DNA from: a virus
Taxonomy: Duplodnaviria > Heunggongvirae > Uroviricota > Caudoviricetes
DNA: 35,687 bases
IMG/VR virus record: IMGVR_UViG_2690315992_000010
Reading direction: 5' to 3' (one strand)
Part shown: in pieces, positions 1 to 35,687 of the stretch
Layout of the letters: each line of letters begins with the position of its first letter
Position numbering within the stretch: position 1 is the stretch's first letter
Translations under genes and position numbers: made by a program
The notes under the pieces: model-generated
Database searches by the model: none
What the model saw: only the letters and a program-made list of their open reading frames with translations
What the model was told of the DNA's origin: nothing

Positions 1-273
1 ATGAACATCGGTAAAGCAATCATCAACTACGCAGCGCGTCGCAACATGGACATTACCTTGATTGGGGATGAGACCGTGGCGTTCTGGGAAGCGGATAACG
101 ATTGTGAATGGATGTTCTCCTACATGATTGGTAATGATGGTTTCCTCCACTTTAAAGGCAATGTGTATCTGCCGCAGGATATTAAAGAAGAATTACCAGC
201 GTGCATCGATACAGACAAGAAGCTGAAAGAAGTAATCAACTTTATCGCTAAAGAGTTTATCAGCAAGAAGTAA
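1..273 (+). CDS. hypothetical protein (begins at window edge, possibly 5'-partial)
   Basis: Open frame 1-273 ending TAA at 271-273, followed by stem-loop at 284-302. No domain recognised. Confidence 0.4.
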   Translation: MNIGKAIINYAARRNMDITLIGDETVAFWEADNDCEWMFSYMIGNDGFLHFKGNVYLPQDIKEELPACIDTDKKLKEVINFIAKEFISKK

Positions 274-283
274 TGTCTAATTT

Positions 284-302
284 GGCGGGTACTATTCCCG
301 CC
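284..302 (+). promoter_or_regulatory. intercistronic stem-loop, copy A of a repeated hairpin-plus-RBS module
   Basis: GGCGGG-tactatt-CCCGCC. The surrounding ~40 bp (TCTAATTTGG.GGGT...ATTCCC.CCG.TTT..AAA.GGA.AAT) recurs at 715-765 with compensatory stem changes. Confidence 0.4.
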
Positions 303-323
303 GATTTAAACGGAATACAGACA

Positions 324-710
324 ATGTTCAATATTATGACTCGTAAATTTGGTGAGATGACTTTCGAGAAAGCTGGTGTTGCTCGTACCGAAGAAGAAGC
401 AATGGCCTTAGTTCTGGTAGCACTGAGATCATCAACTGAGATTATCGACGCTGAATATGTAGCCGCAGAAGGTGAGATTAACGAGATTAAAGCGGTGGCT
501 AAGGAATTAGGTGTTAAAGGTTTCCGTAAGCTGAGACTATCCCGCGAGTCATATGTAATTGGTAAGCAAGGACAATACCTAGATGAGAATACCGTGATTA
601 TTCTACTGAATAAGATCACCCGCTACGGTTGGAAGATTGAGCAATATAAAACATGTTTCGAATTATACGAAAAAGGTTTGCTGGATACTCTGACCATCGT
701 TCGCGCTTAA
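324..710 (+). CDS. hypothetical protein
   Basis: ORF track gives 273-710. ATG 324 preferred because 273-323 overlaps the stem-loop and the paralogous module at 725-766 places the start codon after the hairpin. Stop TAA 708-710. No domain recognised. Confidence 0.4.
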   Translation: MFNIMTRKFGEMTFEKAGVARTEEEAMALVLVALRSSTEIIDAEYVAAEGEINEIKAVAKELGVKGFRKLRLSRESYVIGKQGQYLDENTVIILLNKITRYGWKIEQYKTCFELYEKGLLDTLTIVRA

Positions 711-1018: not shown

Positions 1019-1432
1019 ATGAAAAAGATTATCGCTGGTGTTGTTCTTGCTCTGGGTTTGGTTGGTGCTGCAAATGCTAATACCTATTATGTGTGTAATT
1101 CCTACTTCGAACATAAAGGAGATGATACACAATATCTTCGTGATGGCGACCGTTATTATCATGCACCGTCTGGAAAATATCGTGGTTTTATCGGTGTGAA
1201 AGTTCGCGTGAATGATGATAATAGTCAATTTGCTTTCAACGATCCGGTATATGATAAGACAATCAAAAGCCCTAAATTGAAAGAAGATAAGAACGAGAAA
1301 GAAGAATATTATGGTTCCGAAGATGGTAAATCCTACATCAAGTATCTGCATTCTGTTGATGGCGCGCCTATATTTGATGTTAAAAAAGGTGATACGTCTT
1401 ATTCCCTGATTAGCTGCCGTGAAATTCTTTAA
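1019..1432 (+). CDS. secreted/periplasmic protein of unknown function (Sec signal peptide)
   Basis: Strong RBS AGAGGAAA before ATG 1019. N-terminus MKKIIAGVVLALGLVGAANA is a canonical signal peptide with AxA cleavage motif. Two Cys (positions 26 and 134) could form a disulfide. Confidence 0.6.
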   Translation: MKKIIAGVVLALGLVGAANANTYYVCNSYFEHKGDDTQYLRDGDRYYHAPSGKYRGFIGVKVRVNDDNSQFAFNDPVYDKTIKSPKLKEDKNEKEEYYGSEDGKSYIKYLHSVDGAPIFDVKKGDTSYSLISCREIL

Positions 1433-1446
1433 TCTTTAATCACCTA

Positions 1447-1486
1447 GCCCCTATCGTTATAATACGCGGTAGGGGCGTTTTTGTTT
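1447..1486 (+). terminator. hairpin with T-tract between secreted-protein gene and recombinase gene
   Basis: GCCCCTA...TAGGGGC stem around a TTATAATA centre, followed by GTTTTTGTTT. Could be a terminator/attenuator or a recombinase-associated palindrome. Confidence 0.4.
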
Positions 1487-1495: not shown

Positions 1496-3175
1496 ATGAA
1501 AACTAAACTGTATTCGTATATTCGTTTCTCGTCTATGCGTCAGAATGATGGTTCGAGTTATGAACGACAAATCAGGATGGCTAGAGAGATTGCGGTAAAG
1601 TATGACCTTGAACTGGTAAATGATTATCAGGATCTGGGTGTATCTGCGTTTAAGGGTGCTAACTCCAAAACAGGGGCGCTATCTCGTTTCCTTGATGCAA
1701 TAGGTAGATCCGTTCCTGTTGGTAGCTGGCTATTCATCGAAAACTTGGACCGTTTATCCCGTGCCGATATTGTCAGTGCGCAGGAGTTATTCCTTTCAAT
1801 CATCCGTAGGGGGATAACCATTGTTACTGGCATGGATAACAAGATCTACTCGCTGGATACTGTTACCGCTAACCCGATGGACCTGATGTTCTCCATCCTT
1901 TTATTCATCCGTGGTAATGAGGAAAGCCAGACTAAGCGCAATCGTACTAACTCAAGCGCACTGATTAAGATTAAAGCTCATCAAGAAAATCCACAAAATC
2001 CGGCTGTTGCAATCGAGGAAATTGGAAAGAATATGTGGTGGACTGATACCACATCTGGTTATGTGCTTCCTCATCCGGTCTTCTTCCCTATTGTTCAGGA
2101 AGTTGTGGAATTACGCAGGAATGGACGGTCAACCGCCGAGATACTGGATCACCTTAACGCGACATACACACCACCACCAGCCGCAAGTCACAAGAGGCAT
2201 TCAAACTGGTCACGGGCAATGATTGAAAGGTTGTTCCATACCCGCGCTTTGATTGGTATCAAGGAAATCTCTGTAGATGGCGTTAAGTATGAGTTAAAGG
2301 ATTATTATCCTCGTGTGCTAGATGACGCTGAGTTTTATCACCTTAAGAAAAGCATTGGTGTTAGAGCATGTAACTTTGGAGACAAAGAAGAAGTTAAACC
2401 TATTCCCTTGCTTAGTGGTGTTGGTCTATTGAAATGTGAACATTGCGGTTCCGCTATGGTTAAGGTGAAAGGAACAAACAGACGGCCTAACCAATATCGT
2501 TATTCATGCGATGCAATGCGCTCTAGTCGTATTGAATGTGTGCATACAAACTGGAGTTTTCGCGGCGACCAATTAGAGAAAGCTGTATTGCAATTGCTGG
2601 CTGATAAAATCTGGATTGCTGAAGATAAGGCTAATCCGGTTCCGGCTTTGAAAGTACAGATTGATGAAATATCACGCAAGATTGATAACCTGATTACCCT
2701 TTCTGCTATGACAGGAGCAACGAAGGAGCTAGCCGATCAGATTACTACCCTCAATAGCGAGCGTGAAACACTCTACAATCAAATTAAGATGGCAGAAGAG
2801 GAAATGTATTCTGTTGACTCTCAAGGCTGGGAGAAGCTCGCAGAATTTGATTTAGAAGATGTTTACAACGAGGATCGCATTAAGGTCCGGTTTAAGATTA
2901 AGCAAGCTCTAAAACGGATCGGGTGTAGCAGGATTGACAAGTACAAAAACTTGTTTGTACTGGAATACATCGATGGCAAGACCCAGAGAGTTGTAATAGA
3001 AAATTCAAGAGGACCGAGGAAAGGCCGGATCTTCGTTGATTTGAAGACTATCAATGATAGGCAGATTCTGGAGAGTAACGGGCTTGTTCTGCATCCATGT
3101 TTAGACATGCTGACAGATAAGAACTGGAAACCAGAAGAAGAAATACCAGGTCCATTACAGGAATTTGGAATTTAA
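1496..3175 (+). CDS. large serine recombinase (putative serine integrase)
   Basis: N-terminal resolvase-type catalytic domain (YIRFSSMRQ...SYERQ, GVSAFKG, ENLDRLSRA), then recombinase domain, Cys-rich zinc-ribbon (CEHCGS...YRYSCD...CVH) and coiled-coil; 559 aa from ATG 1496. Track start 1481 is TTG; ATG 1496 is in frame. Confidence 0.8.
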   Translation: MKTKLYSYIRFSSMRQNDGSSYERQIRMAREIAVKYDLELVNDYQDLGVSAFKGANSKTGALSRFLDAIGRSVPVGSWLFIENLDRLSRADIVSAQELFLSIIRRGITIVTGMDNKIYSLDTVTANPMDLMFSILLFIRGNEESQTKRNRTNSSALIKIKAHQENPQNPAVAIEEIGKNMWWTDTTSGYVLPHPVFFPIVQEVVELRRNGRSTAEILDHLNATYTPPPAASHKRHSNWSRAMIERLFHTRALIGIKEISVDGVKYELKDYYPRVLDDAEFYHLKKSIGVRACNFGDKEEVKPIPLLSGVGLLKCEHCGSAMVKVKGTNRRPNQYRYSCDAMRSSRIECVHTNWSFRGDQLEKAVLQLLADKIWIAEDKANPVPALKVQIDEISRKIDNLITLSAMTGATKELADQITTLNSERETLYNQIKMAEEEMYSVDSQGWEKLAEFDLEDVYNEDRIKVRFKIKQALKRIGCSRIDKYKNLFVLEYIDGKTQRVVIENSRGPRKGRIFVDLKTINDRQILESNGLVLHPCLDMLTDKNWKPEEEIPGPLQEFGI

Positions 3176-3179
3176 GCTA

Positions 3180-3437
3180 ATGAAGATGATTAAGATTTTA
3201 GGTTTGATTTTATCTATGAATTCTTGCCTGGCATTGGCAACCGTTGACCAAGAAATGCGTAGACCGCTAACCTATAGAGAAGATGCTTTCATTGATGGAG
3301 CACATAAGACATTGAAATTGCTATGTCAAAAGACCACCAGTAATTACGATGAATACAGAAAATGTTATGAGGAATCACTAGACATTTATTCTGATGAGGT
3401 GAGAAAGATTTTCATAGAACAAGAAAATAAATCATAG
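3180..3437 (+). CDS. small secreted or lipoprotein-like protein
   Basis: N-terminus MKMIKILGLILSMNSCLALA is signal-peptide-like (possible atypical lipobox or ALA cleavage site). Track start 3165 is TTG; ATG 3180 is in frame. Confidence 0.4.
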   Translation: MKMIKILGLILSMNSCLALATVDQEMRRPLTYREDAFIDGAHKTLKLLCQKTTSNYDEYRKCYEESLDIYSDEVRKIFIEQENKS

Positions 3438-3475
3438 GCGGCCTAAATCGCCGTATAACGAACCAAACGCTTTAA

Positions 3476-3498
3476 GGGGTACATTTGTACCCCTTTTT
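3476..3498 (+). terminator. intrinsic terminator at convergence of plus-strand operon and minus-strand late operon
   Basis: GGGGTAC-attt-GTACCCC followed by TTTTT. Confidence 0.6.
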
Positions 3499-3519
3499 AA
3501 TTTAATTGCGTTAGAGAGT

Positions 3520-3717
3520 CTATAATTGGCTTAAATCAAGCTCTAGGTCTTCCGGTTCTTTCATTACTTCAACCAGAGACGGATCTACTTCGTCAAAAAC
3601 GACTTTATCGTCTGCGGTATATTTGTCTATAATGAAAAAATGGTCAGAAATATAGCTAACGTCGCCAGCATATTCTAACAAAAAAGCGCCCACCAGAGGC
3701 GCTTTTGTTTTATCCAT
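3520..3717 (-). CDS. hypothetical small acidic protein
   Basis: 65-aa ORF, last gene of minus-strand operon before terminator; no domain recognised. Confidence 0.4.
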   Translation of the reverse strand: MDKTKAPLVGAFLLEYAGDVSYISDHFFIIDKYTADDKVVFDEVDPSLVEVMKEPEDLELDLSQL

Positions 3718-25181: not shown

Positions 25182-27086
25182 TTAGAACGATGTTACCCAG
25201 CTACGGCCTCTATTTGGGCGTCTGGCGATGTTTTTACGTTGTGGTCGTGTGATTGGCTTATTTTCTTCGATTTGCTCGTCAGATTGCGATTTAGGAGCTT
25301 CTACGGATTCTTCTGGTTCACGGTTCAAACTATCTTTGATGGCTTCGAGTTTTTCCCATGACATTTTATTGAGTACATGGCGATAACTAGCCACCGCATA
25401 GGTTAGGCAGTCCAAGCCCTCGTTGCGTTGCTGACCAACTTTTACCCAACGTGTGGTATTACCCTGCCGTTTCAACTGTTCAGATAGCAATTGCTCGCAG
25501 TAGTCATCAGGAACGTCACCAATCTGGAAGACCGTATGAGGATCGCTGTCTCTCAAGTTCCGGTTAATCATTTCACGGATCATCGTCTTAAGGTTGTTTA
25601 CGCCCAGAATTTTAAGGGTAAAACCGCCCGTTCTTGTGTCTTTTACCGGAAGGATTGGAGCATCAACATTACTTGCGCCCTTAATGGCGCATAGATTTTG
25701 CCACCTAGTGCAAAAGCGGTAGATCACTTGCGTAGCTCGTCCGTTTGATGAGTCCACGAAAGCGGATAGCATCGGGATTCGTTGACCGGATCGGGTATAG
25801 AATTTTGCTTTCAGGAAGTTGTAAAGCTGGTCATATGCTGGTGATTCGTGGCGTTCGCAGTTCACATCATAGAATGATCGGTGATCAACTACGCATATCC
25901 CTTTACGAGAGATACCCAGCAAGGTAGATTCCAGACGGTCTTTTTGCTGGTCAACTCCACCTACCAGAGCCAAAACATCATCAGGAATATTATCTAAGCT
26001 AATGTCAGTTTTCAGCGTTTCCAGTTCGTCGGCTGTGCGGTCTTCGTTAAGATCATCGAAGGTTTCACCGAGCACCACATTATAGAACGTTGCCAGCGAC
26101 ATATTCGCGTAGCTATCAGCAAAGTCCACCACACACGCACGGATAGAACTAAACGGAGACATAAGGCGGTTAGCATGAAAACCGATTACTTCCGCATTTG
26201 GTTCGGTGGCGACCCATTCTCCCTGAGCAACAGCACGGAGGCGATCTGGTTCTGACCAATCAGTTTCACATGACGGGCAACGGTAAACGGCTGTGTCTGG
26301 ATTCGGCAGTGATTTACCATTGATTACATGCCAATCAAAGAATACTCTACTCCATTCCATTACGTGTTTGTGTCCGCAATGCTGGCAAACGACGTGGTAT
26401 TTTCTTTTATCCGAGAGTTCCCATTGTTGGTTTATCGCCCCATCCCGCGAAGTTGGAGTAGAAGCAATTACGATCCTTGCATCATCACCGAAAGTGGTTG
26501 CGCGTTGTTCCGCTAGCTGGATCGGGTTCCCTTCGTCTGACTCATCAGCCGCATCAACTTCATCAAGAATAATCAAAGGTAGTGTTTTACCGCGAAGATG
26601 TGATGGACTATTCAACGACATGAAATACATGAATGATCCGTTACGAAGCTGAATAATCGATGAGTTGTTAACGGCATTGCGATCTGACTTGTCGGTGATC
26701 ATCGCCTTTAATTCTGGGGTTGCCTCTAATACTGGCTTCACCTTACCCGCGATCCAGCTATTCAACTCGCGGACGTTTGCTTGCAAAACACCTATATTAG
26801 TGGGGTTGCTGGCGATCCTATGAAAGATAATACCGTTTAGCACAAGAGTTTTACCCAACTGCGCCGAGCACTTTAGCACAATTTTTCGCCTATCTTCGGT
26901 GATCGCGTCCATCATCCCACGTTGGAAAGGATGCAATTTAATTAGCGATCCGGCTTTAACACCATCGGTTGCAACTACATTAGCCTCTACCCATTCGCTA
27001 GGTTTCATGGCTTTAGGTGGGCGAATTGCAGCAGAGATATTTCTGAGAATCTTTTTTAATTTTGCCTTATTAGAAATCAGTTTCAT
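25182..27086 (-). CDS. terminase large subunit (GpA family)
   Basis: 634 aa; Walker A-like KCSAQLGKT, IASTPT motif, Cys-rich zinc-finger-like segment (CQHCGH...CPSC), size similar to lambda gpA; GAGGGTAA RBS before ATG 27086. Confidence 0.8.
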   Translation of the reverse strand: MKLISNKAKLKKILRNISAAIRPPKAMKPSEWVEANVVATDGVKAGSLIKLHPFQRGMMDAITEDRRKIVLKCSAQLGKTLVLNGIIFHRIASNPTNIGVLQANVRELNSWIAGKVKPVLEATPELKAMITDKSDRNAVNNSSIIQLRNGSFMYFMSLNSPSHLRGKTLPLIILDEVDAADESDEGNPIQLAEQRATTFGDDARIVIASTPTSRDGAINQQWELSDKRKYHVVCQHCGHKHVMEWSRVFFDWHVINGKSLPNPDTAVYRCPSCETDWSEPDRLRAVAQGEWVATEPNAEVIGFHANRLMSPFSSIRACVVDFADSYANMSLATFYNVVLGETFDDLNEDRTADELETLKTDISLDNIPDDVLALVGGVDQQKDRLESTLLGISRKGICVVDHRSFYDVNCERHESPAYDQLYNFLKAKFYTRSGQRIPMLSAFVDSSNGRATQVIYRFCTRWQNLCAIKGASNVDAPILPVKDTRTGGFTLKILGVNNLKTMIREMINRNLRDSDPHTVFQIGDVPDDYCEQLLSEQLKRQGNTTRWVKVGQQRNEGLDCLTYAVASYRHVLNKMSWEKLEAIKDSLNREPEESVEAPKSQSDEQIEENKPITRPQRKNIARRPNRGRSWVTSF

Positions 27087-27129
27087 GTAATTACCCTCAT
27101 TACGAAATATGAAGGTATTTATTAAATTG

Positions 27130-27158
27130 TTGATATTTTGATAAATACGGGTATTAAG
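27130..27158 (+). promoter_or_regulatory. candidate sigma70 promoter for rightward gene 27175 (divergent from terminase)
   Basis: TTGATA - 16 bp - TATTAA upstream of AAGGGGGGG RBS. Confidence 0.3.
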
Positions 27159-27174
27159 ATTTAAGGGGGGGTGT

Positions 27175-27780
27175 ATGCTAATTAATCAGCAACAAAGAGA
27201 TGCATTAGAATTAGCCTTTTCTTGTTGTACCGATCATGAATATCGTTTGCCAGTTAAGCACCATCACAAGAAGACTGATTACACAACATCTGGCTTTAGT
27301 CGTGAGGAAGCTAAACAGATTTTAATCGAGTTGTATCGCGATCATGGGTATACCGATATTCATAACTTCTTTAAGAAGCATCGTACATCACAGACAGAGT
27401 TTAATAGAGTTCGTGAATGGTTTGATTTTGACATTAAGCGATTCTATCGAGTAGATGACGGTCCTATCTATCGGTTGCAGTGGACACCGATTAGGGAAGT
27501 GCTTAAACAGAAGAGATTGAATCATGCCATTACACGCTATCGTAATGTGGCTTTTAAGAAAGGCTATGGTGATTCAAGGGAATTGTTTGTAGAACTCGCT
27601 AACGTGCGATATAGCCACTATTACAGGAATCCTAAAGAGTTCTTCGAAGTGCTGCGCAAGGTTGATATTAGTCGGGGTACATATTATTCACGGTTGAAGA
27701 AGTACGGGATTAAGGCAGAGTTCTTTATGTCGGTTGACGATGGAGAACTTTTTCCGATAAAATGTAAGTCCTCTAAATAA
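27175..27780 (+). CDS. helix-turn-helix protein of unknown function (paralogue family member 1)
   Basis: 201 aa; contains FSREEAKQILIELYRD and C-terminal ISRGTYYSRLKKYGI segments that recur in the two small proteins at 27810 and 31471. Confidence 0.5.
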   Translation: MLINQQQRDALELAFSCCTDHEYRLPVKHHHKKTDYTTSGFSREEAKQILIELYRDHGYTDIHNFFKKHRTSQTEFNRVREWFDFDIKRFYRVDDGPIYRLQWTPIREVLKQKRLNHAITRYRNVAFKKGYGDSRELFVELANVRYSHYYRNPKEFFEVLRKVDISRGTYYSRLKKYGIKAEFFMSVDDGELFPIKCKSSK

Positions 27781-27809
27781 AGGTGAACATTCACTTTAAT
27801 TTGGAGAAA

Positions 27810-28043
27810 ATGACTATGACTACTAAAGCTACTCGCGGTCGCCCTGCCCGTTTTAACGCTGAACAGATGGCTGATATTGCCTACGCTTATTATACAGCGG
27901 ATCGTGGTAAGGAAGCGAAAGAACAGATTCTTAGTGAACATGGGATCTCAATCGCCCAATTCTATAAGAATATGAAGAAGTTGGACATTAAATTCTATGT
28001 TCAGATCGGTGATGGTCAGATCGTAGAAGCAACAGGTTTTTGA
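27810..28043 (+). CDS. small helix-turn-helix DNA-binding protein (paralogue 2)
   Basis: 77 aa from ATG 27810 (GGAG RBS); RGRPARFNAEQMADIAYAYY...ISIAQFYKNMKKLDI. Track start 27783 is GTG. Confidence 0.5.
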   Translation: MTMTTKATRGRPARFNAEQMADIAYAYYTADRGKEAKEQILSEHGISIAQFYKNMKKLDIKFYVQIGDGQIVEATGF

Positions 28044-28058
28044 GTTTTGATTCTCTTT

Positions 28059-28082
28059 GCCACTCTTCGGAGTGGCTTTTTT
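28059..28082 (+). terminator. intrinsic terminator
   Basis: GCCACTC-ttcg-GAGTGGC followed by TTTTTTG. Confidence 0.7.
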
Positions 28083-28203
28083 GTATGTAAAACAATCGGC
28101 GCAAAACTGCGCTCATTTCTAAGTTGAGTCCAAATCTGGACTGATCTATAGATGCATCCAAATCTGGAGGGATGCGCTTAAAGTTCAGCGCATCTACAGA
28201 TAC

Positions 28204-28228
28204 AAAAAAGCCCCTGAAATTCAGGGGC
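28204..28228 (-). terminator. intrinsic (bidirectional) terminator after Rha operon
   Basis: AAAAAA-GCCCCTGAA-at-TTCAGGGGC-AAAAATT; its right half is the TTCAGGGGCAAAAAT motif that forms the iteron array at 30.7-30.9 kb. Confidence 0.65.
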
Positions 28229-28236
28229 AAAAATTA

Positions 28237-29070
28237 TTACAGTCCGAAGACTTCCAGAGAGCCAGCATTCTGACGAATCAGCAAAGCAGTGTTATTAATG
28301 ATTGCTCGTGAGTTATTCGGCTGTGGCAATTTCAAAGTTGCGGCCTTTTCTTCTTCAAGCAATCCGAGTTTTACGAGATGCGGGATAGCATCAGCAGTGA
28401 ACTCGATCTGACCGTGTGCCGACATACGAGCGAACATATAGCCAGGAGGAAGCAGATCATAGCCTTTAGGCTTACCAGAAGCATCCAGACGACGCTCAAG
28501 AACACCAGCAGCACATAAACCTTTCAGAATCATTTGTACCTTCGTAGAGCCTCGTTTTTCGCCTAATAAGCGGCTAAGACTGTGTGCATCAATAGCTTTA
28601 CGGATATGAAGATCAACTAATTGTTCTTTTTCTTGAATCAGTTGTTCGTTTGCGGCTTCTAATTCCATTGCCTCACGAATCCAATCGAGCTTAGTCATGT
28701 TTGCGTATGGGTTGACTTGCTGAGAACGCAGTTTTTCATTTTCTTCTTTCAGTCGTTTCCATTCCTGAATAACAACCATTCGACGCTTAACATCGTAACC
28801 AGTGACAAGAGTCAGAGTCATTTCTTCGTCTAGTTGATATTCGTTTTGTTCGCGTCCGTATTGGTCAAAATAGATGACGCGAAACTTCGCGTGATCTTCA
28901 TAACCTAGAGCATTCAACATCTTAGTTATATCAACTTTAACTTTGTGGTGTTCTTTTCCGGTAAATTCAGCGATCTGACGAGAAGACATGGTCAGTGGTT
29001 TGGTGTTATCAACAACCAGAGACACGGAAGCAGTTTTAACAGCAGTATTCATAGTAGTAACAGTATTCAT
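28237..29070 (-). CDS. Rha-family phage regulatory protein / antirepressor
   Basis: N-terminal LTMSSRQIAEFTGKEHHKVKVDI matches the Rha-domain signature; ~150-aa C-terminal antirepressor-like domain. Confidence 0.65.
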   Translation of the reverse strand: MNTVTTMNTAVKTASVSLVVDNTKPLTMSSRQIAEFTGKEHHKVKVDITKMLNALGYEDHAKFRVIYFDQYGREQNEYQLDEEMTLTLVTGYDVKRRMVVIQEWKRLKEENEKLRSQQVNPYANMTKLDWIREAMELEAANEQLIQEKEQLVDLHIRKAIDAHSLSRLLGEKRGSTKVQMILKGLCAAGVLERRLDASGKPKGYDLLPPGYMFARMSAHGQIEFTADAIPHLVKLGLLEEEKAATLKLPQPNNSRAIINNTALLIRQNAGSLEVFGL

Positions 29071-29159
29071 AGTAAAAATTCCCCTTAAACGGTTTAGTGA
29101 TTTGGTCCTCCTAGTTCCGGCATCTCAACCGGAACAATTTTATTTATGATAGAAATTTA

Positions 29160-29492
29160 TTACCAATCGATTTCTACTTGGTCTTCTTCATAATAAGGAA
29201 TCGCATATTCATAACGCCAATTTTCGATGATTTCACGTTCTTCATTAGTAAGAAGGTGATTGTTAACTGGAGTCGCATTGTGATTACCAGCTTCGAATTG
29301 CTCGCGAACTTCCAGCATTGCATGAATACCAGTTAAGGTCATCAGATCAAACGGAACATGCATACTACGGGAGATAGTTTCACGGGATACACCCCAATCA
29401 TTTTCTACATGGCTAGGGGTTACAGAAACGGTTTTGCCGGAGATTTTAACAGTCCAGTCATACAGGGATTTAGTGATGGTAAATTCTTTCAT
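29160..29492 (-). CDS. hypothetical protein
   Basis: 110-aa ORF with AGAGGA RBS, first gene downstream of promoter at 29549-29577. Confidence 0.5.
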   Translation of the reverse strand: MKEFTITKSLYDWTVKISGKTVSVTPSHVENDWGVSRETISRSMHVPFDLMTLTGIHAMLEVREQFEAGNHNATPVNNHLLTNEEREIIENWRYEYAIPYYEEDQVEIDW

Positions 29493-29548
29493 GTTACATC
29501 CTCTTTACAAATCTAGGTCAAATAGGTTCAAAGTTGTCAAGCGCGATA

Positions 29549-29577
29549 ATCATAAAAAAGTCAGAAATTTTTGTCAA
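29549..29577 (-). promoter_or_regulatory. candidate sigma70 promoter (leftward) overlapped by palindromic operator
   Basis: Minus-strand -35 TTGACA (29577-29572), 17-bp spacer, -10 TATGAT (29554-29549). Palindrome TTGTCAA-tacccc-TTGACAA at 29571-29590 overlaps the -35. Confidence 0.4.
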
Positions 29578-29612
29578 TACCCCTTGACAAGACGCCAAAG
29601 GGTTGACCTAAC

Positions 29613-30071
29613 TTACAGCATATCTAAGCCTTCATCGTAACCGTAGAAGCCACCGTGAGAAGAGAAAGCGATTGGTGCGTAGTCTTCGTCTTCCTCATCT
29701 TGTTCTGGGGCTTCCTGAGCGGTTTCTTTACCGTAATTAAACATTGCTTCATCCAGTTCACGAAGAGTCAAGAAGCTACCCAGGTCAATGTCACCGGAAC
29801 GGACTTGAAACGGCAGATCATCACGAACAATAATTGCTGGTAGATTCTGGTACTTTAAGCGTTCTTCATCGGTGAAGACGTTAACAACAATGGTCGGCTT
29901 CTTATTACGGCAAAACGCATACCATGCACTAGAGAAATGGGATTCATCAGAGTTGAAAAGGATGTTATAACCACGTTCACGGAACATCTTCATTAACTTG
30001 TCATTGTGGAAGCTATCAGAATCCAGACCCAGAAGGATAAAAGGAGTAGTGGTAGTCATCTTGTGGTTCAT
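29613..30071 (-). CDS. hypothetical protein with acidic C-terminal tail
   Basis: 152 aa, GAGGA RBS; C-terminus EAPEQDEEDEDYAP; no domain recognised. Confidence 0.5.
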   Translation of the reverse strand: MNHKMTTTTPFILLGLDSDSFHNDKLMKMFRERGYNILFNSDESHFSSAWYAFCRNKKPTIVVNVFTDEERLKYQNLPAIIVRDDLPFQVRSGDIDLGSFLTLRELDEAMFNYGKETAQEAPEQDEEDEDYAPIAFSSHGGFYGYDEGLDML

Positions 30072-30713
30072 AGTGGAAATCCTCTAAAAGAAAGTGAATC
30101 AAACAAATTACACTAGTATTTATAACGAGAATTTTTTATCTATTTGGAAGGGATTGGTATTCAGTCGGGCATAGCCCTCCTTCATAGATTTTGATTAAAT
30201 CATCATCAAAACGAAGAAGTATCTTTAGAATATAAGAATCTTTCTTTCGAAGAAAGAATAATCAGGAAGCAATTTCAGCAACCGCAGGTTGCGATCCCGA
30301 AGGGATAACCAATACCTTTCTAGAAAGTGATTGTTACTCACTTCGTTCGTTTACTAGAATCAGTTATCATCTAGTATTAAAATCCCTTTCTAAGAAAATC
30401 CTTTCAAAAGTGATTCTCGATGCCACGCAGTGGCGTCGCAGACGTTTGAGAGTGAGCGAAGCGAGCGAGCAAACTAGTTAATTCCTTCTAAGACCATCTA
30501 GTATCATCTAGTTTAAATTAGTTGTTACTAGAAGTAATTGGTTAGCGCTACGCGCAGTCGGGCAAAGCCCTCCTAATATCTTTTTGGTTATTTTTGGTTT
30601 TACACATGAGCGTAGCGAATGTGTTATATAATATCTATGCACGCCCGATTCCCCGTTTTTACCCCTCACTAAGTTAATGTTTTATAAAGAGTTTTTCTTA
30701 CCAATCCTTTTCG

Positions 30714-30906
30714 GGGGCAAATTTCAGGGGCAAAAATTAGATTTTAAGGGGCAATTATTGGCATTTCAGGGGCAAAAATGAGGGGCAAAATCACTGTTTC
30801 CCAGAATTTCAGGGGCAAAAATAGTGGGTTTCAGGGGCAAAAATGGGATAGTGGAATCTTGGGTATTTTGGTTCGGGGGCAAAATTCAGAATTTCAGGGG
30901 CAATTC
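30714..30906. repeat. array of ~9 direct GGGGCAA(A/T) iterons (5 copies of full TTTCAGGGGCAAAAAT)
   Basis: Core starts near 30715, 30727, 30749, 30770, 30782, 30811, 30832, 30876, 30897; spacings mostly 12 or 21 bp; non-coding. Confidence 0.6.
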
Positions 30907-30993
30907 CCATCAAATATTTTGATAGAAAATTCTTGTATATTATTTAATCAAAAAATCACCAAAAAGTGGCGTAAGTTAATGATTTAAAAAGAA

Positions 30994-31019
30994 TTGTCAA
31001 AAGGTCTCCGTGCTATAAT
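30994..31019 (+). promoter_or_regulatory. candidate extended -10 promoter (rightward)
   Basis: TTGTCAA at 30994-31000 and TGcTATAAT at 31011-31019. Confidence 0.35.
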
Positions 31020-31099
31020 AGGTTATAAAGGTTGATAATCCTGATCTACCATTTTCAAACAAAAATTTTGATAGTCATTTCTCGCTTAGGTCAAGTGTA

Positions 31100-31128
31100 T
31101 TGACAACTGTCAAGGATTATTTTATACT
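31100..31128 (+). promoter_or_regulatory. candidate strong sigma70 promoter (rightward) with palindromic -35 region
   Basis: TTGACA (31100-31105), 17-bp spacer, TATACT (31123-31128); -35 lies in palindrome TTGACAACTGTCAA. Confidence 0.5.
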
Positions 31129-31263
31129 TTTTCTCACTGGTGGGGGTTGAAATTTTCTAAACAGTCCCCATATAGATGATAAGCAAGAATTTCCACGTTA
31201 TAAATACATGTGTGAAATGATTGTTCACTTCTGAAAATCTCCTGATCCACTGCTAATTCATAC

Positions 31264-31291
31264 AGCACTGGTTAGATATACAGTGCTTTTT
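31264..31291 (+). terminator. intrinsic terminator-like hairpin (possible end of a ~160-nt small RNA)
   Basis: AGCACTG-gttagatata-CAGTGCT followed by TTTT. Confidence 0.4.
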
Positions 31292-31415
31292 CGGTTGAAT
31301 ATTGTACGAATTGATTAATAATTAATCTTCTCTTTAGCAATTCGTGCTCCCACTGATCGGATATACAGTGGTTTTACAGGGTTTTCTGAAAATCATTTTA
31401 TAAATACAAGTGTTC

Positions 31416-31436
31416 AGAGCGAAATGCTCTTTTTTA
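31416..31436 (+). terminator. attenuator hairpin immediately upstream of gene 31471
   Basis: AGAGC-gaaat-GCTCT followed by TTTTTT. Confidence 0.45.
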
Positions 31437-31470
31437 AGAAATTATTAATCCACATGTGAGGAATCGACTG

Positions 31471-31650
31471 ATGGCTAGACCTGTTAAGTTCACTCGTGAA
31501 ATGATTGTTGATATTGCTAAACGCTTTTACAGCGACACTGAGCGAGGCGGGGAAAACTTCTTTAAGAAGGAAGGAATTGATAGAAGCGGATTCTACAAGC
31601 TAATGAAGAAATACGAAATTCAGGTAAAGATTAACGTTCAAGTTTGTTAA
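31471..31650 (+). CDS. small helix-turn-helix DNA-binding protein (paralogue 3)
   Basis: 59 aa from ATG 31471 (GAGGA RBS); ARPVKFTREMIVDIAKRFY...IDRSGFYKLMKKYEI parallels the 27810 protein. Track start 31456 is GTG. Confidence 0.5.
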   Translation: MARPVKFTREMIVDIAKRFYSDTERGGENFFKKEGIDRSGFYKLMKKYEIQVKINVQVC

Positions 31651-31765
31651 TCCACTTTCACTGAGAATTATATGATGGCTTTAAAAAAAGAAAAAGCCTC
31701 CCTTGTTGCAGCAAAGGAGGCTTGAAATGAACAATTAAAACTAACTTTCTACAGGAGTATTTATA

Positions 31766-32710
31766 ATGTTATTTTCCGCTAACTTTTTCACTAACGAAGT
31801 AACCAACGCTAAAGCAGTTATCAAATTTGGCACCGAAGCAAACAAGAAGATTCAGCCGAAAGTTGTTGTTCATGTTTCCTTTGCGCAGCAGAAATCCGCT
31901 TTCGCTGGCTTTAAAGCACATCGTGAAGCACTGATCGCGGCTGGCTTTGGTGTTGACGGTAAACTGCCTAACGGCATTCGTAAAGCAATCGACCGCGTTA
32001 AACCTGCTAAAGACGTTGCAGTAGACCACATCGTTACTTTCACCGTTAAGAACTCTTCTGAACTGTTCCACCTAGTGATTGCTGGTGATACTGCTATCGT
32101 TTCCGCTCCTAACATGGATTTTCAGGATACCGCTGATTGCAACATTACCTTTGGTCGTCGTAAAGAAGTTACCGGAAAAGCTAAACTGAACTTCACCAAA
32201 TCCGGCAATCCTTACTTTGCTGTATTCTTTAACAGCCACGCTACTGAGAAAGAAGTAGTAGAACTGGTTGCATATGAAGGTGAAGAAAAAGCACGTATTG
32301 AATCTTGCGACGCTTTCGTAGAACTGGAAGCACAGGTTAATGCTGTTTCTCCGGTTGCTGTTGAAGATCGTTTCTCTGCACTGGAAGCACAGATCGCAGA
32401 ACTGAAAGCTGCGCTGGAAGAAAAAGACCAGATCATCGAAGCACAGAAAGCTGAGATTGAAGAACTGAAAGCTAAAGAAGTTGCTCCGGTGGCAGTAGTT
32501 GAAAATGCGGCTGATGAGGCCGCAAATGATGAAGTAGAAGTGAAAATCGATGTGATGCGTGATCCGATGGCTGCACTGCAATTGCTTCGTTCTTTTAAGG
32601 GCAAATCTCATTTTTCTAGTGATGCGGTAGACGAGGAAGAAGAACAGAAACGCAATGTTGCAATGCTTCATGATGAAATGTACGGTACTAACTTTTCTTA
32701 CTGCCAATAA
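31766..32710 (+). CDS. hypothetical protein, apparently highly expressed (N-terminal globular part, C-terminal Ala/Glu-rich coiled-coil-like region)
   Basis: 314 aa; consensus AGGAG RBS 8 nt before ATG; codon usage strongly skewed to CTG/CGT/GGT/GAA/AAA/GCT; bracketed by terminators. No family recognised. Confidence 0.6.
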   Translation: MLFSANFFTNEVTNAKAVIKFGTEANKKIQPKVVVHVSFAQQKSAFAGFKAHREALIAAGFGVDGKLPNGIRKAIDRVKPAKDVAVDHIVTFTVKNSSELFHLVIAGDTAIVSAPNMDFQDTADCNITFGRRKEVTGKAKLNFTKSGNPYFAVFFNSHATEKEVVELVAYEGEEKARIESCDAFVELEAQVNAVSPVAVEDRFSALEAQIAELKAALEEKDQIIEAQKAEIEELKAKEVAPVAVVENAADEAANDEVEVKIDVMRDPMAALQLLRSFKGKSHFSSDAVDEEEEQKRNVAMLHDEMYGTNFSYCQ

Positions 32711-32714
32711 AAAA

Positions 32715-32732
32715 GGGACTCCGAAGAGTCCC
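32715..32732. terminator. bidirectional intrinsic terminator
   Basis: AAAAAA-GGGACTC-cgaa-GAGTCCC-TAGTAAGTTT; stronger T-tract on minus strand. Confidence 0.55.
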
Positions 32733-32806
32733 TAGTAAGTTTAGGTTAGGTTTGCACAACAAAGATGAACATAATGCTACATTATTCTTTAAAGCCAGAA
32801 AAATAA

Positions 32807-32824
32807 CCGCCTCTTTCGAGGCGG
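32807..32824 (-). terminator. intrinsic terminator (minus strand)
   Basis: CCGCCT-ctttcg-AGGCGG with minus-strand T-tract (TTATTTTTCT). Confidence 0.5.
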
Positions 32825-32981
32825 GAGGATTAATACTCAATCTATACTTGTTATGTTTTTATGTTGTATAGATCCTGACTATGAAAACACTGTACTGGAG
32901 TGTGTTTTATGGCTTTTAATCGGGAATCCTCAAAGAAGATCCCCTGTTAATAACCATAAGGAGAAAAGGCAGATTACACTA

Positions 32982-33155
32982 TTATTTAGTATCCTTTTTA
33001 CAGCAACTAAAAAGAATAAACAAAAAGAAGCATACCCAGCCGTAAGGCGTACCGATTAGAAATTTGAAAAACACCACCAGCGATATAAAAATCAATTTAA
33101 TGCCAGCGACGATAGTCAAAAACAGCAGAGTAGCAAAGTAGACAAAAAGATCCAT
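32982..33155 (-). CDS. small hydrophobic membrane protein, ~57 aa (two predicted TM segments)
   Basis: ATG ~33155 with AGAGGA RBS; MDLFVYFATLLFLTIVAGIKLIFISLVVFFKFLIGTPYGWVCFFLFILF...; not in ORF track. Confidence 0.25.
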   Translation of the reverse strand: MDLFVYFATLLFLTIVAGIKLIFISLVVFFKFLIGTPYGWVCFFLFILFSCCKKDTK

Positions 33156-33208
33156 AGATAATCCTCTTTGAAAACGACCATCATCTATAGTTCAATTCAT
33201 CGATTTAA

Positions 33209-33310
33209 TTAATTATACTTGAAAGCGTTACACAAAGTAGAAATGCCAATATGTGCCAGTGAATATACGATAGTTAATCCTACAGCCAGATAAATCAAAA
33301 ATTCAACCAT
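33209..33310 (-). CDS. small hydrophobic peptide, ~33 aa
   Basis: ATG ~33310 with GAGGA RBS; MVEFLIYLAVGLTIVYSLAHIGISTLCNAFKYN; not in ORF track. Confidence 0.2.
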   Translation of the reverse strand: MVEFLIYLAVGLTIVYSLAHIGISTLCNAFKYN

Positions 33311-33408
33311 AGGTAAATCCTCAAATAAGAAAAAGGTTAGCGGGGGATGTTCTCCCCCGTAGGCGTTGACCCATTCAACACCCTTCACATATATTTAGTA
33401 TCTAATTT

Positions 33409-33966
33409 TTACGACACATCAAATTCATCATCTTCTTCTGGTTCTTGTTCTTCCGGTTCATCCATTAATGGTAATTCTTCTTCCTCGTCTTCTCCCAAAT
33501 CTGCATTTTCGAACAAGTCCCCTACTTCATTTAAACGACGCTCGATGATCTCCCTTAGCTTATTCTTCAATGTTTTCTGGTCAGTTGCAGATTCGAGAAT
33601 TTCTAAAGCGTCGATTGTGGCGATCTGCAAAATAGTCTGTTTCACTTTCCCGCAGTATTCCGCTAGTTGCTGTTCTACATAACCGACAGGAATCAGGAGA
33701 TTCATTTTTTCCTGGTTCTCTCGTTCGGCTGCATCTGCCATTGCTCTTTCTCTGCGGAGACGTTCTTGATCAATCGCTTCTTTGATTGAAGTTTGTTTAA
33801 GTGGGTTAATTACGTTCTTTAGCACCCAATCGCAACCTTCCTTTGCTGGAACACGCCTCTTATTGGTATTGTAAGGTAGTCCCCTTTCTAACCATCGCTT
33901 ACCGCCACCATTCAATGTATAACCATATAAACGGGAAATTTCTGTAAGGGTTAATTCTTCTTTCAT
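33409..33966 (-). CDS. terminase small subunit (Nu1-like) candidate
   Basis: N-terminal HTH segment LTLTEISRLYGYTLNGGGKRWLERGLPY resembles the Nu1 DNA-binding domain pattern; central coiled-coil; strongly acidic C-terminus; GGAGGA RBS; palindromes and GC-rich site just upstream. Confidence 0.5.
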   Translation of the reverse strand: MKEELTLTEISRLYGYTLNGGGKRWLERGLPYNTNKRRVPAKEGCDWVLKNVINPLKQTSIKEAIDQERLRRERAMADAAERENQEKMNLLIPVGYVEQQLAEYCGKVKQTILQIATIDALEILESATDQKTLKNKLREIIERRLNEVGDLFENADLGEDEEEELPLMDEPEEQEPEEDDEFDVS

Positions 33967-33984
33967 TGGTTATCCTCCATTAAA

Positions 33985-34043
33985 TTTGCGTAATTTTATT
34001 TATTGGTTTTACGCAAAATCTAAGCGCCTAAAACGCGTTTTAG
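33985..34043. promoter_or_regulatory. palindromic protein-binding sites upstream of small terminase gene (cosB-like candidates)
   Basis: Inverted repeat TTTGCGTAA-N15-TTACGCAAA (33985-34017) and perfect 16-bp palindrome CTAAAACGCGTTTTAG (34028-34043). Confidence 0.4.
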
Positions 34044-34090
34044 CGAAGGGAAAGATCCAGTAATGGTAAGGGTTAGGAAGGGGGTTAATA

Positions 34091-35104: not shown

Positions 35105-35336
35105 GAGGTGAAATGATGCAATTCAATAGCATGAAGATTACTCAAAAATGGTGGGATGCGATGAAAGCTAACCACCAGAACGATATTAATTAAGTAACAT
35201 TTTAGATATACAGCACCCAGCTAACAGATCACCTTTTATGGATTTCATTATAACCCCTTTGATCTGGAAACTATGTTAATTAGTTGATTTCTAAGCCTTG
35301 TCCTTGTGATGGGGCTTTTTATTGCAAAATTTTTAG

Positions 35337-35687
35337 TTATTTTGGGTTGACTACATTCGGGTTGCCAATTCGCCAGGCTAACTCTTGCTGAGTGATTTCT
35401 GACTGTAAAAAAGCATTTAACAGCAATACTTTAGAGGCGACGCTCAAAGGTACTTCAATAAAGTGATCATGACTATTTAATGGCGAAGGTAACGGGATAA
35501 GCTCGTTATCTTCAAAATAAAAATCAAATGCGGTCAGTAAAGCATCTTTTGCCGCTTCCATCGCTTCAGCGACAGTTTCGCCCTGCGTCAACGCTTCAGG
35601 GATATCCACAAAAGAAACCATATAACCGCCTTCCGGCGCGGGTGTAAGAGTGACGGGATAACGCATAATTTCGACTGTCTCTCGCAT
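35337..35687 (-). CDS. hicB: HicB-family antitoxin, N-terminal domain only; C-terminal DNA-binding domain apparently truncated at junction with phage-like DNA
   Basis: MRYPVTLTPAPEGGYMVSFVDIPEALTQGETVAEAMEAAKDALLTAF... recognised as HicB N-terminal domain (recalled as near-identical to E. coli HicB; not verified). ORF ends ...ITQQELAWRIGNPNVVNPK* inside what should be the first helix of the HTH. Base composition and codon usage look more host-like here. Confidence 0.55.
   Translation of the reverse strand: MRETVEIMRYPVTLTPAPEGGYMVSFVDIPEALTQGETVAEAMEAAKDALLTAFDFYFEDNELIPLPSPLNSHDHFIEVPLSVASKVLLLNAFLQSEITQQELAWRIGNPNVVNPK

What the first reader, a model, noticed from the sequence alone, without database searches (positions are those of the whole stretch)
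1496..3175. Large serine recombinase embedded next to the tail/lysis end of the late operon, flanked by secreted-protein genes
A clear serine-integrase-type recombinase lies at the 3' end of a plus-strand operon converging on the late operon, at least 1.5 kb from the left window edge and about 32 kb from the apparent junction at the right edge. Serine integrases usually sit beside attP, so either the attachment site or prophage end is just left of this gene, or this recombinase has another role (excision, inversion, resolution). The palindrome at 1447-1476 centred on TTATAATA is a candidate recombinase site.
Basis: partly seen in the sequence, partly recalled or inferred. Interest (0 to 1): 0.6.

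Follow-up and report, generated by a model that had tools for sequence, protein, structure and literature searches.

The report
Prophage serine integrase targeting hicB
The gene is the integrase of a 35-kb E. coli prophage inserted in the antitoxin gene hicB; this is an ordinary role, but sister phages show that swapping its DNA-binding part changes the insertion gene.

Summary
Window 1496-3175(+) encodes a 559-aa large serine recombinase (LSR): resolvase, recombinase and zinc-ribbon domains, a predicted coiled coil, and intact catalytic residues. The window is an E. coli prophage trimmed at gene boundaries. In complete genomes it interrupts hicB.

One junction (attR) lies at window 35336-35366. 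The other (attL) lies 39 nt beyond the left edge, about 1.5 kb from the gene. Joining the ends gives a 54-bp attP with 18/26 dyad symmetry around a TT crossover. Polymorphic lysogens narrow the exchange to those two bases.

No other recombinase is found in the element. Sister prophages sit in hicB, ycdX or codB. In 22 of 22 loci with a known junction, the site follows the allele of residues 160-370 (the DNA-binding domains), not the catalytic-domain allele.

The palindrome at 1447-1476 is the intrinsic terminator of the upstream gene, not a recombination site.

This is a new member of a known kind. Modest extra interest comes from the natural domain swap, from a nearly identical attP paired with unrelated attBs, and from the cut through the HicB helix-turn-helix. 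Activity, excision and the recombination directionality factor (RDF) are untested.

The parts
1496..3175 (+). Large serine recombinase (serine integrase) gene, 559 aa. Predicted layout: catalytic domain 1-136, helix E 138-164, recombinase domain about 196-292, zinc ribbon 312-372, coiled coil 382-438, extra C-terminal beta-rich region 472-533.
   Evidence: Pfam and PHROG hits. R10, D85, R86, R89, C314, C317, C338 and C348 are invariant in 45 homologues, and S12 is at least 90% conserved. AlphaFold2 model has pLDDT 82.6. Best Foldseek matches are serine integrase-att complexes 9dxd, 9dxf, 9dxh, 9tep, 9rah and 4kis. dN/dS is 0.14-0.19.
1447..1486 (+). Intrinsic terminator of ORF 1019-1432: hairpin 1447-1476 with loop TTATAATA, then tail GTTTTTGTTT.
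   Evidence: The terminator scan reports 11 pairs, 7 of them G-C. The RNA fold is -21.9 kcal/mol, z = -3.3. The hairpin is essentially identical (one loop-edge G/A difference) in hicB-, ycdX- and codB-type phages, and an unrelated hairpin with a T-run replaces it in L006 and L039.
35336..35361 (+). P arm of attP as retained in attR: GTTATTTTGGGTTGACTACATTCGGG. It also supplies the last 8 codons and the stop codon of the truncated hicB.
   Evidence: Junction mapped against intact K-12 hicB. Coordinates. The same arm abuts hicB or ycdX in IMG/VR prophages.
35362..35366 (+). Overlap TTGCC shared by attB, attP, attL and attR. The inferred crossover dinucleotide is TT at 35362-35363.
   Evidence: Searches show the 5-bp overlap and the attP dyad axis on TT. 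Lysogens L048 and L053 have TT-CCC in attL, and ycdX-type lysogens share only TT, which restricts the exchange to TT.
35367..35389 (+). Host B' arm of attB, inside hicB (AATTCGCCAGGCTAACTCTTGCT).
   Evidence: One mismatch to K-12 hicB across the arm, with identity continuing rightwards from the crossover.
35337..35666 (-). Truncated hicB'. It keeps HicB residues 1-101 (K-12 numbering) and adds the phage-encoded residues NPNVVNPK. The helix-turn-helix is cut between helix 2 and the recognition helix.
   Evidence: ORF. K-12 HicB has Pfam HicB_lk_antitox at 3-67 and HTH_3 at 88-134. The truncated product keeps only the N-terminal domain hit. RefSeq annotates two hicB fragments flanking the prophage.
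1..710 (+). The two leftmost prophage genes (1-273 and 273-710), function unknown. They lie between attL and the integrase, and this content varies among relatives.
   Evidence: They match PHROG 6147 and PHROG 14908, both of unknown function. ORF 1-273 is absent from PE15-type prophages.
1019..1432 (+). Gene for a secreted protein of unknown function (moron-like), immediately upstream of the terminator.
   Evidence: A signal peptide is visible in the translation. No Pfam or PHROG hit.
3180..3437 (+). Small secreted-protein ORF in a variable slot downstream of the integrase.
   Evidence: Signal peptide. In relatives the slot holds a 999-nt gene, a GIY-YIG nuclease gene, or a hypothetical gene followed by a DEAD/DEAH helicase gene.
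3474..3495 (.). Hairpin terminator between the convergent integrase block and the late (lysis and tail) genes.

Best explanation
The gene encodes the integrase of a temperate phage of about 35.4 kb found in Escherichia and Shigella. The enzyme is a large serine recombinase.

Inferred mechanism, following established LSR biochemistry: dimers bind the phage site attP and the bacterial site attB. attP is about 54 bp, GTTATTTTGGGTTGACTACATTCGGG-TT-GCCTAATATCATGTACCCACAATAAC. attB lies inside hicB, ...CCTGTTTAGGT-TT-GCCAATTCGCC.... All four strands are cut with 2-nt staggers at the TT dinucleotide, half-sites rotate, and the ends are religated. Nothing is duplicated or lost.

The prophage therefore sits inside codon 102 of hicB. 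attR is at window 35336-35389 and attL lies just beyond the left window edge. The recombinase and zinc-ribbon domains (residues about 160-370) determine which host gene is targeted.

Shown here: the domain architecture and conserved catalytic residues, the junction positions, the 2-bp exchange region, the attP dyad symmetry, that this is the only recombinase in the element, and that the site co-varies with the DNA-binding allele.

Inferred, not shown: catalysis, directionality, excision with an unidentified RDF, and how the gene is expressed.
For: 1. Architecture. Pfam finds Resolvase, Recombinase and Zn_ribbon_recom. R10, D85, R86, R89 and four Cys are invariant, and S12 is nearly so. The predicted coiled coil is 382-438. 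The best structural matches are serine integrase-att complexes.

2. Location. The window matches E. coli O55:H7 DEC5A, 100% over the first 4 kb. There hicB is split into a 3' fragment 36 nt left of window position 1 and a 5' fragment at the right end. Comparison with intact K-12 hicB gives a 5-bp overlap, TTGCC.

3. attP. The reconstructed site has 18/26 matching arm positions around TT. Only 2 of 35,633 positions in the window reach that score.

4. Crossover. ycdX-type lysogens have attB GGGA-TT-TCC, attL GGGA-TT-CCC and attR CGGG-TT-TCC. hicB lysogens L048 and L053 carry TT-CCC in attL. Both limit the exchange to TT.

5. Sole recombinase. RefSeq annotation of three related prophages lists no other integrase, excisionase or transposase apart from IS insertions. 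Pfam and PHROG scans of this window's early region find none.

6. Natural domain swap. Two catalytic-domain alleles (79% identical) combine with three DNA-binding alleles. The insertion site (hicB, ycdX or codB) follows the DNA-binding allele in 22/22 loci.

7. Purifying selection. dN/dS is 0.14-0.19 in every domain.
Against: No circular or free phage genome carrying the predicted attP junction was found in IMG/VR or in metagenome contigs. The four metagenome hits to a degenerate pattern have unrelated flanks and are chance matches.

The window itself lacks attL, so attP is reconstructed from other lysogens. No RDF or excisionase is recognisable. A strong terminator lies directly upstream, and no promoter passes the consensus scan, so expression is unexplained.

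One paper described a related mcr-1-carrying copy as an incomplete, probably non-functional phage-like region (PMC7700713). No enzyme of this clade has been tested; the closest solved or studied integrases align at only 14-16% identity.
Confidence: 0.9

Rival explanations
1. The recombinase is an accessory enzyme (DNA invertase, resolvase, or a YbcK-like protein as in lambdoid phages), and another function integrates the phage.
For: The closest annotated phage proteins include YbcK-like recombinases of lambdoid E. coli phages, about 30% identical. From my own knowledge, those phages also carry a tyrosine integrase. PHROG 125 'DNA invertase' gives a weak second hit, E 7e-11.
Against: No other integrase, transposase or excisionase is present in the element. 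The window holds no inverted pair of att-like sites; only one half-site match exists, at 35336. The full LSR architecture is present, not that of a small invertase. The junctions share only 2 bp, which is the LSR signature. Insertion site follows this protein's DNA-binding allele in 22/22 loci.
Confidence: 0.03
2. The palindrome at 1447-1476 is a site on which the recombinase acts.
For: It lies 20 nt upstream of the recombinase start codon and is a good inverted repeat.
Against: It has a G+C-rich stem and a T-run, and begins 15 nt after the stop codon of ORF 1019-1432, which is the anatomy of an intrinsic terminator. It is essentially unchanged across enzymes with three different specificities. 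In L006 and L039 a different hairpin with a T-run occupies the position. It does not resemble the att arms. Its arms are separated by 8 nt rather than flanking a 2-nt crossover.
Confidence: 0.02
3. The element is a stranded, decaying prophage. The gene once acted as the integrase but no longer mediates integration or excision.
For: The early region has almost no recognisable replication or repressor genes. A related copy was described as incomplete (PMC7700713). No free attP junction was found. Some copies carry IS elements or a truncated recombinase gene (H109 and H163).
Against: The gene is full length in 56 of 57 complete E. coli genomes that carry it (one of them, H109, interrupted by IS1), and is under purifying selection. 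The family is highly mosaic. It occupies the same TT in unrelated strains from humans, pigs, cattle and chickens and in Shigella, and has switched among three targets, which implies repeated recent integrations. A full set of packaging, head, tail and lysis genes is present.
Confidence: 0.1

Closest known systems
Characterised phage serine integrases: PhiC31 Int, Bxb1 gp35, the Listeria A118/LI integrase (PDB 4kis) and SPbeta SprA
   Same: They share the domain order: catalytic domain, helix E, recombinase domain, and a zinc ribbon with an embedded coiled coil. They share a 2-bp non-palindromic crossover, an attP of about 50 bp with imperfect dyad symmetry, and an attB that differs from attP. 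They often insert inside a host gene, for example comK for A118-like phages, groEL1 for Bxb1 and spsM for SPbeta (my own knowledge; SprA in PMC5499854).
   Different: Identity is only 14-16% in structural alignments, and sequence search finds no solved LSR beyond a catalytic-domain hit. The host is an enterobacterium. There is an extra beta-rich region of about 100 aa after the coiled coil. The RDF is unknown and no biochemistry exists.
Serine recombinases of Burkholderia phages Bcep176 (gp53), Bcep22 and JC1
   Same: These are the closest phage-annotated proteins: 28-31% identity over 85% of the length, with the same architecture.
   Different: They are distant and come from a different phage type and host. 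Their att sites were not compared here.
YbcK-like 'recombinase family protein' of lambdoid E. coli phages and the DLP12 prophage
   Same: About 30% identity over 80% of the length, in the same host species.
   Different: From my own knowledge, those phages carry a separate tyrosine integrase, and YbcK lies inside the genome with no known role. Here the LSR is the only recombinase, lies next to the att site, and co-varies with the target.
Computationally predicted LSR and attachment-site catalogue of Durrant et al. 2022 (PMC10083194)
   Same: The inference is the same: attB and attP are deduced from prophage boundaries, targets are often inside genes, and a core dinucleotide is identified.
   Different: I could not check whether this protein is in that catalogue; the accession is absent from the searchable text. 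Window and GN4741 enzymes are 92% identical overall yet use different genes. A 90% clustering rule would pool them, whereas here the difference traces to exchange of the DNA-binding module.
'Phage-like region between lysN (ydcR) and hicB' carrying Tn6330/mcr-1 (PMC7700713)
   Same: It is the same prophage family at the same locus. PE15 and HeN100 carry ISApl1-mcr-1 inside it.
   Different: The passages of that paper retrieved here describe an insertion between two genes and call the element incomplete. They do not mention a split hicB or att sites, and a term search of the paper for 'serine recombinase' was not run.

Membership tests
Large serine recombinase (serine integrase) | N-terminal resolvase-type catalytic domain with the serine nucleophile and conserved Arg/Asp residues | tested here: met
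   PF00239 matches residues 6-153 at 54 bits against a cutoff of 23. The motifs are YIRFSS (R10, S12) and DRLSR (D85, R86, R89). R10, D85, R86 and R89 are invariant and S12 is at least 90% conserved in 45 homologues.
Large serine recombinase (serine integrase) | Recombinase domain (PF07508) following a long helix E | tested here: met
   PF07508 matches 198-286 at 32 bits against a cutoff of 21. The model has a helix at 138-164.
Large serine recombinase (serine integrase) | Zinc-ribbon domain with four cysteine ligands | tested here: met
   PF13408 matches 310-368 at 40 bits against a cutoff of 25. C314, C317, C338 and C348 are invariant.
Large serine recombinase (serine integrase) | Coiled-coil motif emerging from the zinc-ribbon domain | tested here: met
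   The AlphaFold2 model has two helices, 382-406 and 410-438, directly after the zinc ribbon, with block pLDDT mostly 80-88. This is a prediction, not a solved structure. Their antiparallel packing was not inspected.
Large serine recombinase (serine integrase) | Overall fold resembles solved LSR-DNA complexes | tested here: met
   Foldseek top hits are 9dxd, 9dxf and 9dxh (E about 1e-16 to 1e-14), PhiC31 complexes 9tep and 9rah, and 4kis. TM-scores are low (0.2-0.37), as expected for flexible multi-domain chains.
Large serine recombinase (serine integrase) | Conservative exchange at a 2-bp crossover, with no target duplication and no long shared core | tested here: met
   The ycdX-type attB, attL and attR share only TT. 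hicB lysogens with TT-CCC in attL confirm this. The overlap is at most 5 bp at hicB and codB.
Large serine recombinase (serine integrase) | attP of about 50 bp with imperfect inverted arms centred on the crossover, and an attB different from attP | tested here: met
   attP arms match at 18/26 for both the hicB and ycdX types, centred exactly on TT. attB arms match at only 8-9/26. In the window, 18/26 is reached at 2 of 35,633 positions.
Large serine recombinase (serine integrase) | Catalyses attP x attB recombination without cofactors; excision needs an RDF | not testable with these tools
   This needs a recombination assay. No RDF is recognisable by Pfam or PHROG.
Prophage integrase (functional role in this element) | It is the only site-specific recombinase in the element and is encoded next to the attachment site | tested here: met
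   RefSeq annotation of the DEC5A, GN4741 and 39EVA prophages, and scans of this window, show no other integrase. The gene starts about 1.0-2.1 kb from attL in every locus examined.
Prophage integrase (functional role in this element) | Target site changes when the enzyme's DNA-binding domains change | tested here: met
   The site follows the allele of residues 160-370 in 22/22 loci, independently of the catalytic-domain allele.
Prophage integrase (functional role in this element) | An excised circular form carrying the predicted attP is observed | tested here: not met
   No true attP junction was found in IMG/VR or metagenome contigs. Those collections hold mostly trimmed prophage calls, so absence is weak evidence.
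Intrinsic (rho-independent) terminator, for the palindrome at 1447-1476 | G+C-rich hairpin followed by a T-run, just downstream of a stop codon | tested here: met
   11 pairs (7 G-C) and tail GTTTTTGTTT, starting 15 nt after the stop at 1430-1432. The fold is -21.9 kcal/mol, z = -3.3. A hairpin of different sequence occupies the position in L006 and L039.

The most novel reading that the evidence does not exclude
The hicB-type and ycdX-type enzymes would act on almost the same attP (50/54 identical) but on unrelated attB sites (23/54 identical). They differ at only 26 fixed positions: 13 in the recombinase domain, 9 in the zinc ribbon, 1 in the coiled coil and 3 in the C-terminal region. If those substitutions alone retarget attB while leaving attP recognition intact, the family is a natural retargeting series. 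It also has freely exchangeable catalytic modules. It could show how attB and attP recognition are separated in LSRs and guide reprogramming of integrases.

A second reading is not excluded. Insertion removes the recognition helix of HicB, so the prophage may deregulate the host hicAB toxin-antitoxin operon, reversibly on excision.
Probability: 0.4. Interest if true: 0.5.

Novelty: new member of a known kind. Interest (0 to 1): 0.3.

Why it matters
The finding resolves an apparent oddity: an integrase seemingly far from the visible junction is explained by how the window was cut.

It defines testable att sites with a TT core for an uncharacterised enterobacterial LSR clade. Three natural specificities exist (hicB, ycdX, codB), and the modules swap in nature. 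That may interest people who engineer serine integrases.

It shows that a 'phage-like region between lysN and hicB', which carries mcr-1 in some strains, is an LSR prophage that splits hicB.

It also predicts a phenotype. Lysogens make a HicB that keeps its toxin-binding domain but lacks its DNA-recognition helix.

None of this changes how serine integrases are understood.

Tried and rejected
1. I searched for the predicted attP junction as evidence of an excised phage. Three patterns in IMG/VR and one in metagenomes found nothing. A more degenerate pattern gave four metagenome contigs, but their flanks do not match the phage, so they are chance hits.

2. I looked for the window's exact source. 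DEC5A and FDAARGOS_946 are identical over the first 4 kb but diverge in the early region. No complete RefSeq E. coli genome holds the whole window. It resembles IMG/VR prophage calls trimmed at gene starts; L013 has the gene at the same coordinates.

3. An apparent attB dyad centred 6 nt left of the overlap scored 14/26. I rejected it as the crossover because attL and attR keep host and phage bases that place the exchange inside TTGCC.

4. Literature searches for hicB, ycdX or the protein accession together with prophage or serine recombinase found only the mcr-1 paper.

5. Rfam found nothing in the window.

6. A sequence search of PDB gave only one catalytic-domain hit. Fold search was needed to reach the solved LSR structures.

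7. No sigma-70 promoter for the integrase passed the scan. TTAATC-17-TATAAT overlaps the terminator loop (1436-1464), but it is weak and is not conserved in L006 and L039. I do not rely on it.
Full report
**Observation**

The ORF at 1496-3175 (+) is real and encodes 559 aa. Pfam finds Resolvase (6-153), Recombinase (198-286) and Zn_ribbon_recom (310-368), all above their gathering scores. PHROG 95 'integrase' matches at E 3e-58.

In an alignment of 45 homologues, R10, D85, R86, R89 and the four zinc ligands C314, C317, C338 and C348 are invariant. The nucleophile S12 is at least 90% conserved.

An AlphaFold2 model (pLDDT 82.6) shows these parts:
- a catalytic domain;
- a long helix E (138-164);
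- a helical recombinase domain;
- a zinc ribbon (312-372);
- two helices (382-406 and 410-438) that read as the coiled coil;
- a further beta-rich region (472-533).

Its best matches among solved structures are full-length serine integrases bound to att sites: 9dxd, 9dxf, 9dxh, PhiC31 9tep and 9rah, and LI integrase 4kis.

The neighbouring ORFs 1019-1432 and 3180-3437 have clear signal peptides. The + strand block converges on the - strand lysis and tail genes across a hairpin at 3474-3495.

**Where the window comes from**

No isolated phage in the GenBank phage collection resembles it at the DNA level. Its first 4 kb are 100% identical to a chromosomal region of E. coli O55:H7 DEC5A and of FDAARGOS_946. 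Related copies occur in 57-60 of 5,426 complete E. coli genomes.

In DEC5A the element lies between ydcR and hicA. RefSeq annotates two hicB fragments there. The 3' fragment ends 36 nt left of the base that corresponds to window position 1, and the 5' fragment lies at the far end.

The window is not DEC5A itself, because the early region is mosaic. It begins at the first phage gene's ATG and ends at an ATG upstream of hicB. IMG/VR prophage calls are cut in the same way. So the window contains attR but stops 39 nt short of the crossover in attL.

**The attachment sites**

I aligned the junctions with intact K-12 hicB. All sequences below are in window orientation.

| Site | Sequence |
|---|---|
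| attB | ...CCTGTTTAGGT TTGCC AATTCGCC... |
| attL | ...TTTAGGT TTGCC TAATATCATGTACCCACAATAAC... |
| attR | GTTATTTTGGGTTGACTACATTCGGG TTGCC AATTCGCC... |

The P arm in attR is at 35336-35361 and the overlap TTGCC at 35362-35366.

Joining the phage arms gives an attP whose arms match at 18 of 26 positions when centred on the first two bases, TT. No other centre within 16 offsets exceeds 11. Only 2 of 35,633 positions in the whole window reach 18. All four half-sites carry GG at positions -3 and -2 from the TT.

Polymorphism narrows the exchange further. Lysogens L048 and L053 have ...AGGT-TT-CCCTAAT... in attL, while the host site reads TT-GCC. In the ycdX-type phages:

| Site | Sequence |
|---|---|
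| attB | GGGA-TT-TCCGGG |
| attL | GGGA-TT-CCCTAA |
| attR | CGGG-TT-TCCGGG |

Only TT is common to all of these. A 2-bp non-palindromic crossover, with no longer shared core, is what serine integrases produce.

**Is this protein the integrase?**

Three lines of evidence say yes.

First, nothing else in the element could do the job. PGAP annotation of three related prophages lists no other integrase, excisionase or transposase apart from IS insertions. Pfam and PHROG scans of this window's own early region find only a Rha/Ant-like regulator, a small-terminase-like protein and an LprI-like secreted protein.

Second, the gene lies about 1.0-2.1 kb from attL in every locus examined.

Third, there is a natural experiment. 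Related prophages are inserted in hicB, in ycdX or in codB, each time splitting the gene. The recombinases are mosaics:
- two catalytic-domain alleles, 79% identical to each other;
- three alleles of residues 160-370, where the hicB type is 85% identical to the ycdX type and 61% to the codB type;
- for hicB and ycdX, both catalytic alleles occur with each DNA-binding allele.

In all 22 loci whose junction I could read, the insertion site follows the 160-370 allele and ignores the catalytic allele. Those loci are 15 chromosomal loci (DEC5A plus 14 fetched junction loci) and 7 IMG/VR contigs. That region is where LSRs hold their two DNA-binding domains (established from the LI integrase-attP structure, 4kis).

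dN/dS is 0.14-0.19 in each part of the gene, so it is maintained by selection.

**The palindrome**

The sequence at 1447-1476 is a hairpin of 11 pairs (7 G-C) with an 8-nt loop, followed by GTTTTTGTTT. It starts 15 nt after the stop codon of ORF 1019-1432. Its fold energy is -21.9 kcal/mol, z = -3.3.

It is essentially the same (one loop-edge G/A difference) in phages of all three specificities. In L006 and L039 an unrelated G+C-rich hairpin with a T-run takes its place. It does not resemble the att arms, and the only att-like half-site in the window is at 35336. It is an intrinsic terminator, not a recombination site.

**Consequences of integration**

The crossover falls in codon 102 of hicB. 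K-12 HicB has the HicA-binding domain at 3-67 and an HTH_3 domain at 88-134.

The lysogen's gene encodes residues 1-101 plus NPNVVNPK, read from the P arm. This product keeps only the N-terminal domain hit. The cut lies between helix 2 and the recognition helix.

I infer, without a test, that DNA binding and hence autorepression of hicAB is lost while toxin neutralisation is kept. Excision would restore the gene exactly.

**Comparison with what is known**

This is a typical serine-integrase arrangement, with the gene next to attP and an attB inside a host gene. The protein itself is remote from studied enzymes: 14-16% identity in structural alignments.

Close relatives (at least 58% identical) are confined to Escherichia, Shigella, Salmonella, E. 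fergusonii and Edwardsiella. All are named only 'recombinase family protein'. The next relatives are at or below 40% local identity. The nearest annotated phage proteins are the Burkholderia Bcep176, Bcep22 and JC1 recombinases and the YbcK-like proteins of lambdoid phages, at about 30%.

The only literature trace I found is a report of a 'phage-like region between lysN and hicB' carrying mcr-1, judged incomplete (PMC7700713). Durrant et al. (PMC10083194) established the comparative method and the general picture of targets inside genes and core dinucleotides. I could not check whether this enzyme is in their catalogue.

**What remains open**

I found no sequence of the excised form and no RDF. 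I cannot say how the gene is transcribed, since it lies behind a strong terminator. These gaps limit the claim to 'integrase by strong comparative inference'.

The most interesting residue is that the hicB- and ycdX-type attP sites are 50/54 identical while the attB sites are only 23/54 identical. The two enzyme types differ at 26 fixed positions, 22 of them in the recombinase and zinc-ribbon domains. This offers a compact natural series for studying how attB choice is encoded.

**Verdict**

The thing is a new member of a known kind. Interest is about 0.3.

Noticed in passing
window 30071-31456, repeats at 30709-30905: An ORF-poor stretch of about 1.4 kb in the early region holds about 9-10 copies of TTTCAGGGGCAA, mostly spaced 21-22 nt apart. 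This looks like an iteron array, perhaps a replication origin or a regulator-binding array. Rfam finds no RNA family in the window.
   Followed up: partly
window 27000-35100: The early region has almost no recognisable replication, repressor or excision genes. Only three are recognisable: a Rha/Ant-like regulator (28237-29070, -), a small-terminase-like gene far from the large terminase (33409-33966, -), and a secreted LprI-like protein (34325-35104, +). How this phage replicates and maintains lysogeny is unclear.
   Followed up: partly
related prophages in E. coli PE15 (NZ_CP041628.1) and HeN100 (NZ_CP044443.1): Copies of this prophage family carry ISApl1-mcr-1 (colistin resistance) in their early region (H77 and H80). 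This matches the chromosomal mcr-1 pattern 'between lysN and hicB' reported in PMC7700713.
   Followed up: partly
window 3176-3520 and the equivalent slot in L004-L008 and L048-L055: The slot just downstream of the integrase is hypervariable. Here it holds a small secreted-protein ORF. Elsewhere it holds a 999-nt gene, a GIY-YIG nuclease gene, or a hypothetical gene followed by a DEAD/DEAH helicase gene, and sometimes IS1 or IS3. It may be an accessory or defence-gene hotspot.
   Followed up: no
window 3550-3620: About 70 nt inside the small - strand ORF 3520-3717 are about 90% identical to the 'inh' (prohead protease inhibitor) gene of RB49/Phi1-like T4-type phages. This is a short patch of exchange with unrelated lytic phages.
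   Followed up: no
window 9930-10703 (-): RefSeq annotates a gene inside the tail module as a 'NUMOD3 domain-containing DNA-binding protein', which suggests a homing-endonuclease-like insertion. It is absent from the equivalent position in strain 39EVA.
   Followed up: no
E. coli loci L004/L011 (ycdX), L007/L012 and L008 (codB): Sister prophages split ycdX (zinc phosphatase) or codB (cytosine permease) rather than hicB, always at a TT with GG two bases to its left in the phage arm.
   Followed up: yes
window 1436-1464: A perfect -10 hexamer, TATAAT (1459-1464), sits in the terminator loop, 17 nt after TTAATC. It could be a weak promoter for the integrase, but it fails the scan's criteria and is not conserved in L006 and L039.
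   Followed up: partly
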